DNA of 50,828 bases from a phage: sequence record PZ452605.1; one strand, written 5' to 3'. How positions within the stretch are numbered: position 1 is the stretch's first letter; each line of letters opens with the position of its first letter. The notes under the pieces were generated by a model, which searched no databases, had not been told where the DNA came from, and worked only from the letters and a program-made list of their open reading frames with translations. A program made the position numbers and the translations under genes. This document shows, piece by piece, positions 15,825 through 24,321 of the stretch.

Positions 15825-15850
15825 ACACCCGCCTTGCGCGGGTTTTTTTG
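15825..15850 (+). terminator. terminator-like hairpin
   Basis: ACCCGC-CTTGC-GCGGGT then T7. Confidence 0.5.
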
Positions 15851-15898
15851 TGCATTTATAATGTGCAAACCAAGAAACAGCACAAAAGGTTAAAAGTC

Positions 15899-18800
15899 AT
15901 GGCTAAATATATGATAAGCGGCAGTAAGGGCGGAAGCAAAAAGCCATACGTGCCAAAAGAGATGGAAGATAACCTGATCTCGATAAACAAGATTAAAGTT
16001 TTGCTGGCTGTATCTGATGGCGAGTGCGATCCAGATTTCACGTTGCGTGATCTTTATCTTGATGATGTTCCGGTTATTGTCAGCGATGGCACTGTTAACT
16101 ATGATGGGGTAACGGCTGAATATAGACCAGGCACACAGACGCAAGATTACATCCAGGGGTTTACTGACACATCAAGCGAGGTGATAGTTTCGCGAGACAT
16201 TACAACAGACAATCCCTATATTATCTCTGTGACAAACAAAAATCTTTCTGCAATAAGAATCAAGATTCTGATGCCAGTTGGCATAAAACAGGAGGATAAC
16301 GGCGATCTTGTTGGCGTAAGGGTTGAGTATGCCGTAGATATGGCTATTGATGGCGGTTCTTATAGCGAGGTTATGAGGGATGTAATTGACGGCAAGACAA
16401 GATCAGGATATGACCGCAGCAGAAGGATTGATCTTCCTAAATTTGATGAGCGTGTTTTAATACGAGTCAGGAGAATGACGCCAGATAGCACGTCTTCAAA
16501 GGTGACTGATAAAATCAAGCTGCAAAGTTACGCTGAGGTTGTTGATGCAAAATTCCGTTATCCTCTGACTGGCCTTGTATTCGTAGAATTTGACAGCGAA
16601 CTGTTTCCTACGCAAATCCCTAACATTTCTATAAAAAAGAAATGGAAGATTATTAATGTGCCAAGCAACTATGATCCAATATCAAGAGAATATCACGGGT
16701 CATGGGATGGGACTTTTAAAAAAGCGTGGTCAAATAATCCGGCTTGGGTTCTTTATGATCTGGTGACAAATCAGCGTTACGGACTTGATCAGCGAGAGTT
16801 AGGAATACAGATCGACAAGTGGAGCTTATACGAGGCGGGTGTTTACTGTGATCAGAAAGTTCCAGACGGCAAGGGCGGTACAGAGCCTCGCTACCTATGC
16901 GATGTGGTGATTCAGAATCAAGTTGAGGCTTATCAGCTAATCCGTGACATTTGCTCAATCTTTCGCGGAATGAGTTTTTGGAATGGTGAGAGCTTATCAA
17001 TCGTGATTGATAAGCCGCGCGATCCATCATACGTGTTTACTAATGAAAACGTCATCAACGGTGATTTTCAGTACACAAACGCAAGCGAAAAAAGCATGTA
17101 CACGCAGTGTAACGTGACGTTTGACGACGAACAAAACATGTATCAGCAGGACGTAGAGGGGGTTTTTGATACTGAGGCTGCATTACGATTTGGATACAAT
17201 CCAACAAGCATTACAGCGATCGGTTGTACACGCAGGAGCGAAGCGAATCGTCGCGGTCGGTGGGTTTTGAAAACAAACCTTAGAAGCACTACTGTAAACT
17301 TTGCTACCGGACTAGAGGGGATGATTCCATCAATAGGTGATGTGATTGCTATCGCTGATAATTTTCAGAGCAGCAACCTAACGTTAAACCTATCAGGCCG
17401 AGTGATGGAAGTTTCAGGATTGCAGGTTTTCGTTCCGTTTAAGGTTGATGCTCGTCCTGGTGATTTTATTATCATCAACAAGCCGGACGGAAAGCCAGTT
17501 AAGCGCACGATCTCAAAGGTTAGCGCAGACGGAAAAACCATTGAGTTAAATATTGGATTTGGTTTTGATGTTAAGCCTGATACTGTTTTTGCGATTGACC
17601 GTACTGACCTTGCGTTGCAGCAATACGTTGTGACAACTATCAGCAAGGGTGATGACGAAAACGAGTTTACCTATTCAATCACGGCTGTGGAGTACGATCC
17701 GAACAAATACGACGAGATTGATTATGGCGTAAACATTGATGACAGGCCGACTTCAATTGTTCAGCCTGACGTGATGGCAGCGCCTGAGAACGTTAAGATC
17801 TCATCTTATTCTCGCGTCGTGCAGGGTGTTAGCGTTGAGACTATGGTTGTTTCATGGGATAAGGTTCCTTACGCATCGCTTTATGAAATGCAGTGGCGAA
17901 AAGGTGATGGTAACTGGCTGAATACGCCGCAGACCGCTAACAAAGAGATAGAGGTAGAAGGGATTTATTCAGGCAACTACCAAGTAAGGGTGAGATCCGT
18001 TTCTGCAAGCGGTAACACTTCCCCGTGGTCAAAGATTGCAACCGCAACCCTGACAGGTAAAGTTGGCGAGCCAGGAGCGCCGATTAGTCTTACAGCCTCT
18101 GATAATGAAGTTTTTGGCATTCGTGTTAAATGGGGTATGCCGGAAGGTTCAGGCGATACTGCCTACATTGAGCTTCACCAATCGCCAGATGGAACGGTGG
18201 AAAACTCAAGTCTTCTTACGCTGATCCCATATCCGCAATATGAGTATTGGCATAGCACTTTACCAGCGGGGCAAGTTGTATGGTATAGAATCCGCAGCGT
18301 TGACAGAATAGGCAACGTTTCCGGCTGGACTGACTTTGTTCGTGGCATGGCGTCAGATGATGTTGACTCTGTTTTAGGCGACATTCTGGACAAGATTTTT
18401 GATACCGAAGCTGGTCAAGAAATCAAAGAGAACGCCATAGATAGTGCCAACAAAATCAAAGACCAGGCGCAATCAATCATCCAGAACGCATTGGCAAACG
18501 ATGCTGATGTGAAGTGGACGCGAGTGCAAAACGGAAAGCGCAAGGCTGAATATGGTCATGCTCTTGAGCTTATCGCCAATGAAACAGAAGCGCGCGTAAC
18601 TCAAATCGAAGAGTTAAGGGCTTCAATTGATGGCGAGATAACATCAAGCATCAAGACAGTGCAGGAGGCAATTGCCACTGAATCAGAGACGCGAGCGACT
18701 CAAATTCAGCAGCTTGATTCTAAATTCACAAAAGAAATCGACGGCGTGCGCAAGGATACTTCTGCAAGCATTAGCGATGTAAGGCAGACAATCACTAACG

Positions 18801-19477
18801 AGTCAGAAGCGCGCGCTCAGGCCGTTCAGCAGCTTGACGCTAAGTTCACGAAAGAGATAAACGACCTTGACGGAGTTATCAAAACAGAAGTCGAGGCTAA
18901 CATCTCAGAAGTGAAACAGGCGATCGCCAATGAGACAGAGGCAAGGGTTCAGGCTGACCAGGCATTAACAGCACGATTTGGCGACGTTGAATCTGCATTG
19001 GTTGAAAAGTTGGATTCTTGGGCGAGCGTTGATTCAGTTGGCGCTAAATACGCTATGAAACTTGGCCTTACTTACAAAGGCCAGCAATACAGCGCAGGAA
19101 TGGTGATGCAGCTTTCGCAGGGTTCATCCGGCCTTATCTCGCAAATTTTGTTTGATGCTAACAGGTTCGCCATTATGACTAGCTCTACTGGAGGGACTTT
19201 TACTTTGCCTTTCGTGGTTGAGAATAATCAGGTTTTCATTAATAGTCTTTTGGTGAAGAACGGTTCAATCACTAATGCGATGATTGGTAATGTGATTCAG
19301 TCAAACAACTTTGTTCAAAACCAGCAAGGATGGAGGCTTGATAAGAATGGGCGATTTGAGAACTACGGTTCTACGGCTGGAGAAGGTGCAATGAAGCTGA
19401 CCAATGAAACGATAAGTGTGCGAGACGCAAACGGGCAATTGCGCGTTCAGATTGGCAGGCTGACTGGTACTTGGTAA
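15899..19477 (+). CDS. host specificity / central tail fibre protein (lambda J-like)
   Basis: about 1190 aa; largest ORF after the tip assembly genes; fibronectin-like middle and repeat-rich C-terminal part. Confidence 0.8.
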   Translation: MAKYMISGSKGGSKKPYVPKEMEDNLISINKIKVLLAVSDGECDPDFTLRDLYLDDVPVIVSDGTVNYDGVTAEYRPGTQTQDYIQGFTDTSSEVIVSRDITTDNPYIISVTNKNLSAIRIKILMPVGIKQEDNGDLVGVRVEYAVDMAIDGGSYSEVMRDVIDGKTRSGYDRSRRIDLPKFDERVLIRVRRMTPDSTSSKVTDKIKLQSYAEVVDAKFRYPLTGLVFVEFDSELFPTQIPNISIKKKWKIINVPSNYDPISREYHGSWDGTFKKAWSNNPAWVLYDLVTNQRYGLDQRELGIQIDKWSLYEAGVYCDQKVPDGKGGTEPRYLCDVVIQNQVEAYQLIRDICSIFRGMSFWNGESLSIVIDKPRDPSYVFTNENVINGDFQYTNASEKSMYTQCNVTFDDEQNMYQQDVEGVFDTEAALRFGYNPTSITAIGCTRRSEANRRGRWVLKTNLRSTTVNFATGLEGMIPSIGDVIAIADNFQSSNLTLNLSGRVMEVSGLQVFVPFKVDARPGDFIIINKPDGKPVKRTISKVSADGKTIELNIGFGFDVKPDTVFAIDRTDLALQQYVVTTISKGDDENEFTYSITAVEYDPNKYDEIDYGVNIDDRPTSIVQPDVMAAPENVKISSYSRVVQGVSVETMVVSWDKVPYASLYEMQWRKGDGNWLNTPQTANKEIEVEGIYSGNYQVRVRSVSASGNTSPWSKIATATLTGKVGEPGAPISLTASDNEVFGIRVKWGMPEGSGDTAYIELHQSPDGTVENSSLLTLIPYPQYEYWHSTLPAGQVVWYRIRSVDRIGNVSGWTDFVRGMASDDVDSVLGDILDKIFDTEAGQEIKENAIDSANKIKDQAQSIIQNALANDADVKWTRVQNGKRKAEYGHALELIANETEARVTQIEELRASIDGEITSSIKTVQEAIATESETRATQIQQLDSKFTKEIDGVRKDTSASISDVRQTITNESEARAQAVQQLDAKFTKEINDLDGVIKTEVEANISEVKQAIANETEARVQADQALTARFGDVESALVEKLDSWASVDSVGAKYAMKLGLTYKGQQYSAGMVMQLSQGSSGLISQILFDANRFAIMTSSTGGTFTLPFVVENNQVFINSLLVKNGSITNAMIGNVIQSNNFVQNQQGWRLDKNGRFENYGSTAGEGAMKLTNETISVRDANGQLRVQIGRLTGTW

Positions 19478-19520
19478 AATCAAGGCGGGGCATTTGCCCC
19501 GCACTTATGGAGGTTTAATA

Positions 19521-19832
19521 ATGGCTGAATATGGAATCTCAACATGGGATGCAAACGGAAGATATAATAACTACGGCATCAAGCCATCGGTTGTTGTTGG
19601 AATGTTCTCACTTTCTACAGGTCAGGTTTCTGGCAGTTATACATTTAACGTACCTTCTGGATACAAGCTATCATACGCAATATCACTTGATGAAGGGAGT
19701 AGTGCCGGAGATAGGAGAAAAATCACAATATCAGGCAACAAAATTACTATTTCAAATGCCGGGGCATCAATAGGCGCTGACATATGGCCTACAACAAAAT
19801 GCGATGTTATTGTTTTTTTGGAGACTGCATAA
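19521..19832 (+). CDS. hypothetical tail-associated protein (paralog A)
   Basis: 104 aa; GGAGG RBS; N-terminus MAEYGIS resembles next gene MAQYGAS. Confidence 0.4.
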   Translation: MAEYGISTWDANGRYNNYGIKPSVVVGMFSLSTGQVSGSYTFNVPSGYKLSYAISLDEGSSAGDRRKITISGNKITISNAGASIGADIWPTTKCDVIVFLETA

Positions 19833-20426
19833 ATGGCGCAATACGGAGCAAGTTTTAAACTACCAAATGGGAATGTTTTCGTTACCCCTGACGCAAGTCC
19901 TTTATGCCTTTATAGGCGCATGACGCTAACATCAAATTACCAATCAGTGACAATTCCATCTGGCAAGCCTGTCATGTATTTTTCTCGCGACGCTGACGGA
20001 ATATCAATGGCGTTTAGAAAATCAGCAACAGAATTGTTGGTAGGGCCAGGCAATGGGGTTGGTTACATTTTTACTATATTTACACCTTCTCTTCCTAAGT
20101 ATGGGATGGGTATCTGGAATGCAGAGGGGCAATTGATATTGACCAACGAATCAAGGATTTTAACAGATCTTGTTAAGGTTGGAACACCTGGAAATCAAGG
20201 TGGAATATACATAGATCAGACTCTTACAGGTTCTTATGCAATTGCACCTCAATTGCTTGGTGCTATTGTGGGAATGGGGTCTGCATCAATTTATGCAGCA
20301 ACAAAATATAACGGAAGCACGACAAGAATTTATGGCAAGGCCGCAGGGCAGCCGCCAGGTGCTCAAGGTTATATTAATCATGGAAATATAATAACAGCAA
20401 TCAAGACTGATATTTACGACCAATAA
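19833..20426 (+). CDS. hypothetical tail-associated protein (paralog B)
   Basis: 197 aa; ATG directly after upstream stop. Confidence 0.4.
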   Translation: MAQYGASFKLPNGNVFVTPDASPLCLYRRMTLTSNYQSVTIPSGKPVMYFSRDADGISMAFRKSATELLVGPGNGVGYIFTIFTPSLPKYGMGIWNAEGQLILTNESRILTDLVKVGTPGNQGGIYIDQTLTGSYAIAPQLLGAIVGMGSASIYAATKYNGSTTRIYGKAAGQPPGAQGYINHGNIITAIKTDIYDQ

Positions 20427-20429
20427 AAA

Positions 20430-20455
20430 AAGGGGCTTAAGCCCCTTTGTTATTT
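20430..20455. terminator. bidirectional terminator
   Basis: A7-AGGGGC-TTAA-GCCCCT-TTGTTATTTT between convergent genes. Confidence 0.6.
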
Positions 20456-20689
20456 TCACAGACTGCAATCATCGTTTTTAAAGTTATCAACGCTTACCCA
20501 CTGAAAATTAAACGGATAGCCAGCCTTAACCAGCGTCTGATCACCAACTCTTTTAGCGCCAAAAATAGCGACAGAATATTCCATGCCACTATTTTCATAA
20601 GTGGCCGTGCATTCACGTTTAGGCATATTTGCGCAACCAGTCAGGGCAACGGCGGCAATTAAAACTGCGATTAACTTTTTCATCTTCAA
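20456..20689 (-). CDS. cor: small lipoprotein, Cor-like superinfection exclusion candidate
   Basis: 77 aa; signal peptide with lipobox LTGC; sits right after tail fibre genes on opposite strand, as cor does in T1/phi80-type phages. Confidence 0.5.
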   Translation of the reverse strand: MKMKKLIAVLIAAVALTGCANMPKRECTATYENSGMEYSVAIFGAKRVGDQTLVKAGYPFNFQWVSVDNFKNDDCSL

Positions 20690-20738
20690 TACTCCTTAGT
20701 TGTTGTTGGCTGCAACTATACACGATCTTGGGCATCGC

Positions 20739-20757
20739 GTTTAGCAAAAAGTGCTAT
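20739..20757 (-). repeat. intergenic motif copy (variant) in cor-exonuclease control region
   Basis: GTTTAGCAAAAAGTGCTAT. Confidence 0.5.
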
Positions 20758-21125
20758 TTGTTATTTTTGTTTTCCGGTGTTATAGAATTTAAGACGGCGT
20801 AAATTTAGCGCAAATTTTAGACAACATAAGATCAATAAACAATCAATAAAATAGATATATACATATAAAATCAATAGTTTATTTATTTATGTATGTATAT
20901 TTGTTTTTTCTTGTTATCTTCGTTTCTTGTGGTTTTGGTTGTTTGTGGTGATTTTTCTTTCTGAGTATCTGTATATGCCATCATTCATGTGTATTTATAT
21001 AATCCGGCGTACCTGAGAGAACAGGGGAACAAGAAAAATAACACATATTAATCATTAACTTATGAGTCAAATCTGTTTTCTTGCCATCTGAGAACGTTTA
21101 GAAAACAGAAAAAACAAAACAGCTA

Positions 21126-21153
21126 TTGACTAAATCAACCAAATGGCTACAAT
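21126..21153 (+). promoter_or_regulatory. sigma70-like promoter (TTGACT-16-TACAAT)
   Basis: near-consensus -35 and -10 with 16-nt spacer, 30 nt upstream of exonuclease ATG. Confidence 0.55.
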
Positions 21154-21183
21154 GCACGCATAAAGCAACAAGGAGCATTAAAG

Positions 21184-23729: not shown

Positions 23730-23760
23730 AAAAAGCCCCGCATATGCGGGGCTTTTTTTA
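23730..23760. terminator. bidirectional terminator
   Basis: A5-GCCCCGCATATGCGGGGC-T7 between convergent SSB and fibre genes. Confidence 0.7.
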
Positions 23761-24321
23761 GTCTAACGTGGTTGGTTTGTTTACCAGTGCCGCTACAACC
23801 GCTTTTAGCTCGTCAATTTCTTTTCTCATCTCATCGTTTTCCGCTTTCAGTTTCTTAACGTGGTGAATCAGTGGAACAGTGAGGCGGTCATACATAACGC
23901 CTTCCGCCACCATGCCATTACTTGAAGCAATGGCAGGATCTTCTCCTTCTTGCAGCGGTCGCCAGTGAACGTACTCCGGCGCAATTTCTCCAACTTCCTC
24001 TGCAATCAGTCCGTACCATCCCCAATCTTTACGGTCGCTTTCACAGGTTGACCGATACCACACAGGACGCATTTCAAGCATCAGATCCGCATATTCATCA
24101 ATAACCGATTCTACGCTGCGCTTATAACGAGAAGAGGAAGTGGAGCGTAAAACTTGCGACACTCCAGCATTTGGATCAAGCCATAAGTTTGCTGATTGAG
24201 CGGTTGTGTTTAGTCTAAACAAATAAAATGCCTCGTTACCAGTCAGGGGGTAAAAATTGCCACCATACCTTCCGCTATCCAACTCGGACGATAGATCATT
24301 TTGTTTTAGATACAACTTCAA
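23758..24321 (-). CDS. short tail fibre-like protein with C-terminal intramolecular chaperone (peptidase S74-like) domain
   Basis: 187-aa ORF; SDRKDWGWYGLIAEEVGEIAPEYV resembles the autoproteolytic chaperone domain of fibres/tailspikes. Confidence 0.55.
   Translation of the reverse strand: MKLYLKQNDLSSELDSGRYGGNFYPLTGNEAFYLFRLNTTAQSANLWLDPNAGVSQVLRSTSSSRYKRSVESVIDEYADLMLEMRPVWYRSTCESDRKDWGWYGLIAEEVGEIAPEYVHWRPLQEGEDPAIASSNGMVAEGVMYDRLTVPLIHHVKKLKAENDEMRKEIDELKAVVAALVNKPTTLD

What the first reader, a model, noticed from the sequence alone, without database searches (positions are those of the whole stretch)
20456..20689. Cor-like lipoprotein after the tail genes
A 77-aa lipoprotein is encoded on the opposite strand right after the fibre-associated genes and is bracketed by a bidirectional terminator. 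This matches the position and size of cor, which blocks the receptor against superinfection in T1/phi80-type phages.
Basis: partly seen in the sequence, partly recalled or inferred. Interest (0 to 1): 0.45.

Follow-up and report, generated by a model that had tools for sequence, protein, structure and literature searches.

The report
Cor receptor-blocking lipoprotein of T1-like phage
This is an ordinary, already well-known phage gene (cor) whose small lipoprotein most likely shuts the host's FhuA receptor after infection, so that other phages and the phage's own progeny cannot attach to it.

Summary
Window 20456-20683 (- strand) encodes a 75-aa lipoprotein. The 77-aa TTG start is only the longest possible ORF; the Shine-Dalgarno site and all homologues point to the ATG at 20683. 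It matches NCBIfam 'phage exclusion lipoprotein Cor' end to end (71.8 bits, cut-off 31) and PHROG 1119 Cor (E 3e-30). It is 56% identical to T1 Cor, 40% to phi80 Cor, and 74/75 identical to a gene of phage PeterMerian, whose experimentally determined receptor is FhuA. It follows the J tail-tip gene and the same two small genes as in T1, phi80 and N15. dN/dS against relatives is 0.02-0.24. An AlphaFold model's best solved-structure match is T5 Llp bound to FhuA.

The hairpin at 20429-20448 is a bidirectional terminator, but it lies only at the 3' end and is shared with the converging gene, so it does not bracket cor.

The window is a Warwickvirus (Drexlerviridae) genome. Its closest backbone relatives (tunus, XY3) carry a different allele of this locus, one linked to BtuB. 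The FhuA-type unit (J tip, two small genes, mature Cor) was therefore exchanged as a block, with one junction inside the cor signal peptide.

This is known biology and of low interest.

The parts
20456..20683 (-). cor coding sequence: 75 aa plus TGA stop. The precursor is MKKLIAVLIAAVALTGCANMPKRECTATYENSGMEYSVAIFGAKRVGDQTLVKAGYPFNFQWVSVDNFKNDDCSL.
   Evidence: ORF list; NCBIfam Cor 71.8 bits; PHROG 1119 E 2.8e-30; dN/dS 0.02-0.24
20633..20683 (-). Signal peptide II and lipobox (codons 1-17; L14-T15-G16-C17). Cys17 becomes the lipidated N-terminus. Ala at +2 (not Asp) predicts Lol sorting to the outer membrane.
   Evidence: Sequence; Pfam LPAM_1 19.6 bits; G16 and C17 invariant or nearly invariant in alignments A1 and A2. 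The '+2 rule' comes from established knowledge of E. coli lipoprotein sorting.
20692..20697 (-). Shine-Dalgarno AAGGAG, 8 nt upstream of the ATG at 20683.
   Evidence: Sequence; conserved in XY3 and PeterMerian
20429..20448 (.). Bidirectional intrinsic terminator hairpin, with an A-run on the left and a T-run on the right. It is shared by cor (-) and the converging 197-aa gene (+).
   Evidence: Terminator scan hits on both strands. T1 has annotated terminators at the equivalent place.
20715..20747 (-). Candidate cor promoter: TTGCTA at 20747..20742 and TATAGT at 20720..20715. The 21-nt spacing is non-canonical, so this is only a lead.
   Evidence: Alignment with XY3, PeterMerian and T1; T1 has TTGCAA-17-TACAAT at the aligned position. 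The consensus scan found no - strand promoter here.
19521..19832 (+). 103-aa gene (phrog_557, labelled 'outer membrane protein'), homologue of T1 gp32 and N15/phi80 gp22. It is a putative part of the FhuA-specific receptor-binding module.
   Evidence: PHROG E 1.8e-30; 53% identical to T1 ST32; 97/103 identical to PeterMerian
19833..20426 (+). 197-aa gene (phrog_425, labelled 'membrane associated protein'), homologue of T1 gp31 and N15/phi80 gp23. It is a putative receptor-binding protein of the module.
   Evidence: PHROG E 5e-44; 40% identical to T1 ST31; 193/197 identical to PeterMerian
15899..19477 (+). J-like tail-tip protein (1192 aa from the ATG at 15899). Its last ~100-200 nt belong to the exchanged unit.
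   Evidence: ORF list; annotations in relatives; mismatch profile
19300..20662 (.). Exchanged host-recognition and exclusion cassette (approximate limits). It is PeterMerian-like (FhuA type) inside a tunus/XY3-like backbone.
   Evidence: blastn breakpoints at 19493 and 20630; per-segment identities; 100-nt mismatch counts; alignment of the cor 5' end

Best explanation
The gene is cor, the superinfection-exclusion lipoprotein of a lytic T1-like phage (genus Warwickvirus, Drexlerviridae).

Shown by computation here:
- It encodes a 75-aa prolipoprotein of the Cor family.
- The gene is under purifying selection.
- It sits tail-to-tail with the two small genes that follow the J tail-tip gene.
- Those two genes and cor form the FhuA-type allele of the host-recognition locus.

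Inferred from the family and from the T5 Llp-FhuA structure:
- After infection the gene is transcribed on its own from the spacer upstream and terminated at the shared hairpin.
- The precursor is exported. It is lipidated on Cys17 and cleaved by signal peptidase II.
- The 59-residue mature beta-rich domain is probably closed by a Cys25-Cys73 disulphide.
- It binds the periplasmic face and plug of the TonB-dependent transporter FhuA and locks it in a state whose outer loops no longer accept phage receptor-binding proteins.
- The infected cell and its debris would then stop adsorbing FhuA-dependent phages, both competitors such as T1, T5 and phi80 and the phage's own progeny.
For: - Family membership: NCBIfam NF047972 Cor at 71.8 bits (cut-off 31), full length; PHROG 1119 at E 2.8e-30.
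- Identity to known Cor proteins: 56% to T1 Cor and 39.5% to phi80 Cor.
- Conserved residues: lipobox Cys17, Cys25, Cys73 and G55-Y-P-F58 are invariant or nearly invariant across T1, phi80 and metagenomic homologues.
- Real gene: dN/dS 0.02-0.24.
- Context: J, phrog_557, phrog_425, cor, as in T1 and phi80.
- Receptor: the cassette is 94-95% nt identical to that of PeterMerian/Bas05, and Cor is 74/75 aa identical. Bas05 is listed with terminal receptor FhuA (PMC8594841 supplementary table). An independent survey found the three-gene cor cassette in the FhuA-using Drexlerviridae and Dhillonvirus phages of the BASEL collection (PMC13164509).
- Mechanism by analogy: the AF2 model (mean pLDDT 77, about 90 over residues 25-65) has as its best PDB match Llp in the FhuA-Llp crystal 8A60_B (TM 0.51/0.61, rmsd 2.6 A over 55 columns). 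The best PDB sequence hit is the same chain. The best viral-model hits are a T1-like exclusion protein and lipoproteins of phages I recognise, from my own knowledge, as T5-like.
- Published basis: van den Berg et al. 2022 show that Llp is periplasmic, binds the FhuA plug and folds loops EL7 and EL8 inward. They state that Cor proteins share about 20% identity with Llp, including the disulphide, and likely work the same way (PMC9586334).
Against: - No experiment exists on this phage or this protein.
- The similarity to Llp is weak (E about 0.03 by both sequence and Foldseek), and the model rests on only 12 sequences.
- The molecular mechanism of Cor itself is described as not yet elucidated in a 2026 preprint (10.64898/2026.03.26.714494).
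- No canonical sigma-70 promoter was found upstream. The best hexamers are 21 nt apart, so timing and level of expression are unknown.
Confidence: 0.88

Rival explanations
1. It is a Cor-family lipoprotein that blocks an outer-membrane receptor other than FhuA, for example BtuB, because Cor-like lipoproteins in this phage group come in receptor-specific alleles.
For: The closest backbone relatives (tunus, XY3) carry at the same locus an 89-aa lipoprotein that still matches PHROG 1119 Cor weakly (E 8e-8). That lipoprotein is 98.9% identical in FritzSarasin/Bas04, which uses BtuB. PMC13164509 also notes Cor-like proteins in BtuB-using phages.
Against: The window's mature domain is not that allele. 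Only the signal peptide aligns with the XY3 protein. The window protein is 74/75 identical to the PeterMerian protein (FhuA user) and 56% identical to T1 Cor. It passes the Cor equivalog model by 40 bits. The two adjacent genes are 94-98% identical in protein sequence (97/103 and 193/197) to those of PeterMerian.
Confidence: 0.04
2. It is Cor and excludes FhuA-dependent phages, but not by an Llp-like periplasmic jam of the FhuA plug. Instead it acts through other outer-membrane proteins or by another route that lowers functional FhuA.
For: The title of Arguijo-Hernandez et al. [quoted passage not shown] The Cor mechanism is stated to be unresolved. The strongly conserved GYPF motif of Cor has no counterpart in Llp.
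Against: The fold and the Cys pair are shared with Llp. A published AlphaFold3 model docks a T1-like Cor on the periplasmic face of FhuA with ipTM 0.84 (PMC13164509).
Confidence: 0.07
3. It is a conserved ORF that is not expressed, or a structural or assembly accessory of the tail tip rather than an exclusion factor.
For: No consensus promoter was found upstream. PeterMerian's authors left the gene as 'hypothetical protein'.
Against: It shows strong purifying selection, a good Shine-Dalgarno site and its own terminator. A lipoprotein signal peptide is incompatible with a cytoplasmically assembled virion part. Its orientation is opposite to the tail operon.
Confidence: 0.01

Closest known systems
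Cor of coliphage T1 (ST30, YP_003915) and of other Drexlerviridae, e.g. SLUR29 KMB87_gp57 and PeterMerian bas05_0025
   Same: Same length (75 aa), lipobox, Cys pair and GYPF motif. Identity is 56% to T1 and 74/75 to PeterMerian. Same place and orientation: a solitary gene on the opposite strand between the J-gp32-gp31 genes and the exonuclease VIII gene, with a shared terminator.
   Different: Asp71 where all close relatives have Ala. The upstream promoter hexamers are 21 nt apart instead of 17 as in T1. Here the cassette sits in a tunus-like backbone whose nearest relatives carry another allele.
Cor of temperate phages phi80, N15, HK022 and mEp167 (the original cor, which excludes FhuA-dependent phages from lysogens)
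   Same: Same family (39.5% identity to phi80 Cor over the full length) and same three-gene order after J.
   Different: In phi80, cor is on the same strand as the tail genes; that it is expressed from a prophage is general knowledge, not checked here. In the window it is on the opposite strand of a phage of a lytic family, so exclusion would operate during the lytic cycle, as for T5 Llp.
Llp of phage T5 (PDB 8A60 chain B, FhuA-Llp complex)
   Same: A small outer-membrane lipoprotein of similar size, with the lipid Cys and the following Cys aligned. It is the best solved-structure match of the model. It has the same target (FhuA) and the same proposed effect (PMC9586334).
   Different: Sequence similarity is only marginal (E 0.033; 22% identity in the structural alignment). 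Llp lacks the GYPF motif. It is encoded next to the single large receptor-binding protein pb5, not next to phrog_557 and phrog_425 genes.
BtuB-type allele of the same locus (tunus gp02-gp04, XY3 GNY05_00049-51, FritzSarasin)
   Same: The same three protein families (phrog_1119, phrog_557, phrog_425), the same flanks, and almost the same first seven codons and upstream spacer of the lipoprotein gene.
   Different: All three genes lie on the strand opposite to J. The mature lipoprotein domain is unrelated at BLAST level. The allele is linked to BtuB, not FhuA.
Rtp45 of phage Rtp (exclusion lipoprotein acting on LptDE)
   Same: A small periplasmic outer-membrane lipoprotein encoded in the receptor-recognition locus of a T1-like phage. 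It changes the outer loops of the receptor from the periplasmic side (PMC12685063).
   Different: Different receptor, which is not a TonB-dependent transporter. No sequence comparison was made here.

Membership tests
Cor superinfection-exclusion lipoproteins (NCBIfam NF047972, PHROG 1119) | Full-length match to the curated family model above its cut-off | tested here: met
   71.8 bits against a cut-off of 31, residues 1-73 on model positions 1-76 of 78; PHROG 1119 E 2.8e-30
Cor superinfection-exclusion lipoproteins (NCBIfam NF047972, PHROG 1119) | N-terminal signal peptide II with a lipobox cysteine, and no Asp at +2 (outer-membrane sorting) | tested here: met
   MKK, a hydrophobic core, then L-T-G-C17 followed by A18. 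C17 is invariant in A1 and A2. Pfam LPAM_1 scores 19.6 bits.
Cor superinfection-exclusion lipoproteins (NCBIfam NF047972, PHROG 1119) | Two further conserved cysteines (intramolecular disulphide) and the G-Y-P-F motif | tested here: met
   C25 is invariant, and C73 and G55-Y56-P57-F58 are at least 90% conserved across T1, phi80 and metagenomic homologues. That the pair forms a disulphide is inferred from Llp Cys11-Cys58 (PMC9586334).
Cor superinfection-exclusion lipoproteins (NCBIfam NF047972, PHROG 1119) | Position directly after the J tail-tip gene and the gp22/gp23-like gene pair | tested here: met
   Window order is J, phrog_557, phrog_425, cor. The order is the same in T1 and phi80.
Cor superinfection-exclusion lipoproteins (NCBIfam NF047972, PHROG 1119) | The carrying phage uses FhuA as terminal receptor | tested here: inconclusive
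   Not measurable for this phage. The near-identical cassette of PeterMerian/Bas05 goes with FhuA, and the cassette tracks FhuA use across the BASEL collection.
Cor superinfection-exclusion lipoproteins (NCBIfam NF047972, PHROG 1119) | Expression excludes FhuA-dependent phages and inactivates FhuA transport | not testable with these tools
   Needs plating, adsorption and ferrichrome or albomycin assays.
T5 Llp (lytic conversion lipoprotein) | Significant sequence similarity to Llp | tested here: inconclusive
   phmmer against the PDB gives 8a60_B as top hit, but at E 0.033 and 17.6 bits.
T5 Llp (lytic conversion lipoprotein) | Llp fold | tested here: met
   Foldseek on the AF2 model ranks 8A60_B first: probability 1.00, TM 0.51/0.61, rmsd 2.6 A, E 0.035. 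This is modest support from a model built on a shallow alignment.
T5 Llp (lytic conversion lipoprotein) | Encoded next to a pb5-type receptor-binding protein gene | tested here: not met
   The neighbours are phrog_557 and phrog_425 genes. It is therefore filed as Cor rather than Llp, with the mechanism taken as Llp-like.
Moron (independent transcription unit within a phage operon region) | Own promoter and own terminator, transcribed independently of its neighbours | tested here: inconclusive
   The opposite strand and the terminator are confirmed. The promoter is not convincingly identified.

The most novel reading that the evidence does not exclude
The receptor-binding genes and the receptor-blocking domain of this phage group are exchanged as one recombination unit with fixed ends. 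One junction lies in the last ~100-200 nt of J. The other lies inside the signal-peptide codons of the exclusion lipoprotein gene. A conserved promoter, Shine-Dalgarno site and first signal-peptide codons in the backbone can therefore drive whichever mature exclusion domain arrives with a new receptor specificity (here FhuA type in a backbone whose closest relatives are BtuB type). That such loci move horizontally is already published (PMC8594841). Only the placement of a junction within the lipoprotein signal sequence may be a new detail.
Probability: 0.6. Interest if true: 0.3.

Novelty: already known. Interest (0 to 1): 0.12.

Why it matters
It matters little beyond correct annotation. It identifies the gene as cor and predicts that this phage uses FhuA and makes infected cells refractory to FhuA-dependent phages such as T1, T5 and phi80. 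That is useful for predicting receptor use and cross-exclusion in phage cocktails. PeterMerian's near-identical gene, still labelled 'hypothetical protein', can be annotated the same way. The mapped exchange of the whole unit (J tip, two small genes, mature Cor) illustrates how receptor specificity and self-exclusion stay matched when T1-like phages switch receptors. It also marks natural junctions that could be used to re-target such phages.

Tried and rejected
- Pfam has no Cor model. Only sub-threshold hits to the lipid-attachment site and to unrelated lipoprotein families appeared, so they were not used.
- The 77-aa TTG start was rejected, because its Shine-Dalgarno spacing would be 2 nt and all homologues start at MKK.
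- 'Bracketed by a terminator' was rejected. No terminator-like site lies upstream of the gene.
- A canonical sigma-70 promoter for cor was sought but not found. Only the divergent promoter-like site TTGACT-16-TACAAT for the exonuclease gene (21126-21153) is clear and conserved to T1.
- Repeats in the 500-nt AT-rich spacer are short, low-complexity matches with no convincing iterons or operators.
- Rfam (gathering thresholds) and ARAGORN found nothing in the whole window.
- The word-indexed protein search returned only 11 close homologues.
- The first blastn script pooled all loci in one file and had to be rerun with subject names.

Full report
**Observation.** The ORF list shows a 77-aa ORF at 20456..20689 on the - strand, starting at TTG. 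The sequence shows that TTG-AAG-ATG precedes the body of the gene. AAGGAG at 20697..20692 lies 8 nt before the ATG at 20683 but only 2 nt before the TTG. All homologues and all annotated relatives begin MKK. The gene is therefore 20456..20683, encoding 75 aa.

The product has a basic N-terminus, a hydrophobic stretch and the lipobox L-T-G-C17, so it is a lipoprotein precursor (Pfam LPAM_1 19.6 bits). Residue +2 is Ala. Under the E. coli '+2 rule' (established knowledge) this means sorting to the outer membrane.

The hairpin AAAGGGGCTTAAGCCCCTTT (20429-20448) has an A-run on one side and a T-run on the other, and it scores as terminator-like on both strands. It separates cor from the converging 197-aa gene. 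It is thus a shared 3' terminator. Nothing terminator-like lies on the 5' side of cor, so 'bracketed' is imprecise.

**Is it a real gene?** Against seven relatives the Nei-Gojobori dN/dS is 0.02-0.24. For example, 10 synonymous changes and 1 non-synonymous change separate it from PeterMerian, and 22.5 against 5.5 separate it from SLUR29. This is coding sequence under purifying selection.

**What is it?**
- NCBIfam NF047972 'phage exclusion lipoprotein Cor' (equivalog) matches residues 1-73 at 71.8 bits, with a cut-off of 31.
- PHROG 1119 'Cor superinfection exclusion protein' matches at E 2.8e-30.
- tblastn finds it in 231 phage records. Identities are 98.7% to PeterMerian, 77-92% to other Tempevirinae (many annotated as Cor or super-infection exclusion protein), 56% to T1 Cor and 39.5% to phi80 Cor.
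- In an alignment with T1, phi80 and metagenomic homologues, C17 and C25 are invariant. G16, C73 and G55-Y-P-F58 are nearly invariant.

**Context.** The window is a complete-looking Drexlerviridae genome of the genus Warwickvirus, about 97% identical to XY3, JK16 and tunus over about 95% of its length. Upstream of cor on the + strand lie three genes:
- the J-like tail-tip gene (15899-19477);
- a 103-aa gene (19521-19832; phrog_557; 53% identical to T1 gp32);
- a 197-aa gene (19833-20426; phrog_425; 40% identical to T1 gp31).

Downstream, across a 500-nt AT-rich spacer, come exonuclease VIII and ORFs that correspond to genes annotated in close relatives as a recombination protein and SSB. T1 has exactly this arrangement, with cor alone on the opposite strand. 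phi80 has the same gene order, but with cor on the same strand as the tail genes.

**Which receptor?** PeterMerian/Bas05 has proteins 97/103, 193/197 and 74/75 identical to the three cassette proteins. It is listed with FhuA as terminal receptor in the BASEL supplementary table (PMC8594841). That paper matches alleles of the locus downstream of gpJ, including 'cognate superinfection exclusion proteins', to receptor specificity. A 2026 survey found the three-gene cor cassette in the FhuA-using Drexlerviridae and Dhillonvirus phages of the collection (PMC13164509).

**How it most likely works.** AlphaFold2 on a 12-sequence alignment gives a small beta-rich domain. Mean pLDDT is 77 overall and about 90 for residues 25-65; the signal peptide is low, as expected.
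- The best match among solved structures is chain B of 8A60, T5 Llp bound to FhuA (probability 1.00, TM 0.51/0.61, rmsd 2.6 A, E 0.035).
- The same chain is the top sequence hit in the PDB (E 0.033), with the lipid Cys and the next Cys aligned.
- Among viral models the best hits are a T1-like exclusion protein and lipoproteins of phages I recognise, from my own knowledge, as T5-like.
- van den Berg et al. showed that Llp is periplasmic, binds a non-native state of the FhuA plug and folds loops EL7 and EL8 inward, so that the receptor-binding protein cannot dock. They state that Cor proteins share the disulphide and probably act alike (PMC9586334).

[quoted passage not shown] These steps are inferred, not shown. 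The Cor mechanism proper is still called unresolved, and a 2018 title suggests that other outer-membrane proteins are involved.

**Expression.** The spacer upstream of cor is conserved in XY3 and PeterMerian. The consensus scan found no - strand promoter. The best hexamers, TTGCTA (20747..20742) and TATAGT (20720..20715), are 21 nt apart, whereas T1 has TTGCAA-17-TACAAT at the aligned place. The promoter and the timing of expression therefore remain open.

**A by-product: cassette exchange.** The nearest backbone relatives do not have this cassette.
- Homology to XY3 and tunus stops at about 19493 and resumes at 20630.
- In between, those phages carry three genes, all on the strand opposite to J: an 89-aa lipoprotein, a 92-aa gene and a 204-aa gene.
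- These genes belong to the same three PHROG families but are barely alignable with the window's.
- That lipoprotein is 98.9% identical in FritzSarasin/Bas04, a BtuB user.
- A finer count puts the left junction inside the last ~100-200 nt of J. Mismatches to XY3 rise from 0-1 per 100 nt to 17 and then 41, while those to PeterMerian fall to 3.
- The right junction lies inside the cor signal peptide. The first 21 nt of the gene and the whole upstream spacer are XY3-like (97.8%), while the rest of the gene is PeterMerian-like.

The J tip, the two putative receptor-binding genes and the mature Cor domain thus travel together. This fits the published view that these loci move horizontally and keeps receptor choice and self-exclusion matched.

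**Verdict.** This is a known gene family in a known position in a known phage group. Novelty is nil apart from the junction detail, and interest is low.

Noticed in passing
window 19300-20662, compared with L004 (XY3) and L005 (tunus): The host-recognition and exclusion cassette differs from that of the closest backbone relatives. The window has the FhuA-type allele (PeterMerian-like). Tunus, XY3 and FritzSarasin have a BtuB-linked allele with all three genes inverted relative to J. The junctions lie in the last ~100-200 nt of J and within codons 7-18 of the lipoprotein signal peptide.
   Followed up: yes
window 20684-21183: A 500-nt AT-rich, low-complexity spacer lies between cor and the exonuclease VIII gene. 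It is 97.8% identical to XY3. It holds a conserved + strand promoter-like site, TTGACT-16-TACAAT (21126-21153), that is also recognisable in T1, but no canonical promoter for cor. Only short imperfect repeats were found.
   Followed up: partly
L001 5057-5284 (PeterMerian bas05_0025) and L001 4122-5027: In the GenBank record of PeterMerian, the Cor orthologue (74/75 identical) and the two genes before it are annotated only as 'hypothetical protein'. They can be named from this analysis.
   Followed up: yes
window 19485-19502: A GC-rich hairpin (GCGGGGCAAATGCCCCGC) lies just after the J stop codon. It scores as a terminator on the - strand only. In the tunus-type allele it would end the - strand three-gene operon. 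In the window it precedes the 103-aa gene, so that gene's transcription must read through it or start anew.
   Followed up: no
window 15848-15898 and 19494-19520: The mechanical ORF list over-extends two genes at TTG codons. J most likely starts at ATG 15899 (1192 aa, as annotated in relatives). The 103-aa gene most likely starts at ATG 19521, not TTG 19494 (112 aa).
   Followed up: partly
window 20471-20473 (codon 71 of cor): Asp71 in the window's Cor replaces the Ala found in all close relatives, giving KNDDCSL instead of KNADCSL, two residues before the C-terminal cysteine. Its significance is unknown.
   Followed up: no
window 23758-24321 (- strand): A 187-aa ORF on the - strand corresponds to the gene annotated in relatives as the lateral tail fibre chaperone ('chaperone of endosialidase'). 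It begins the lateral tail-fibre block, which is only about 76% identical to PeterMerian. This is another variable host-range module.
   Followed up: no
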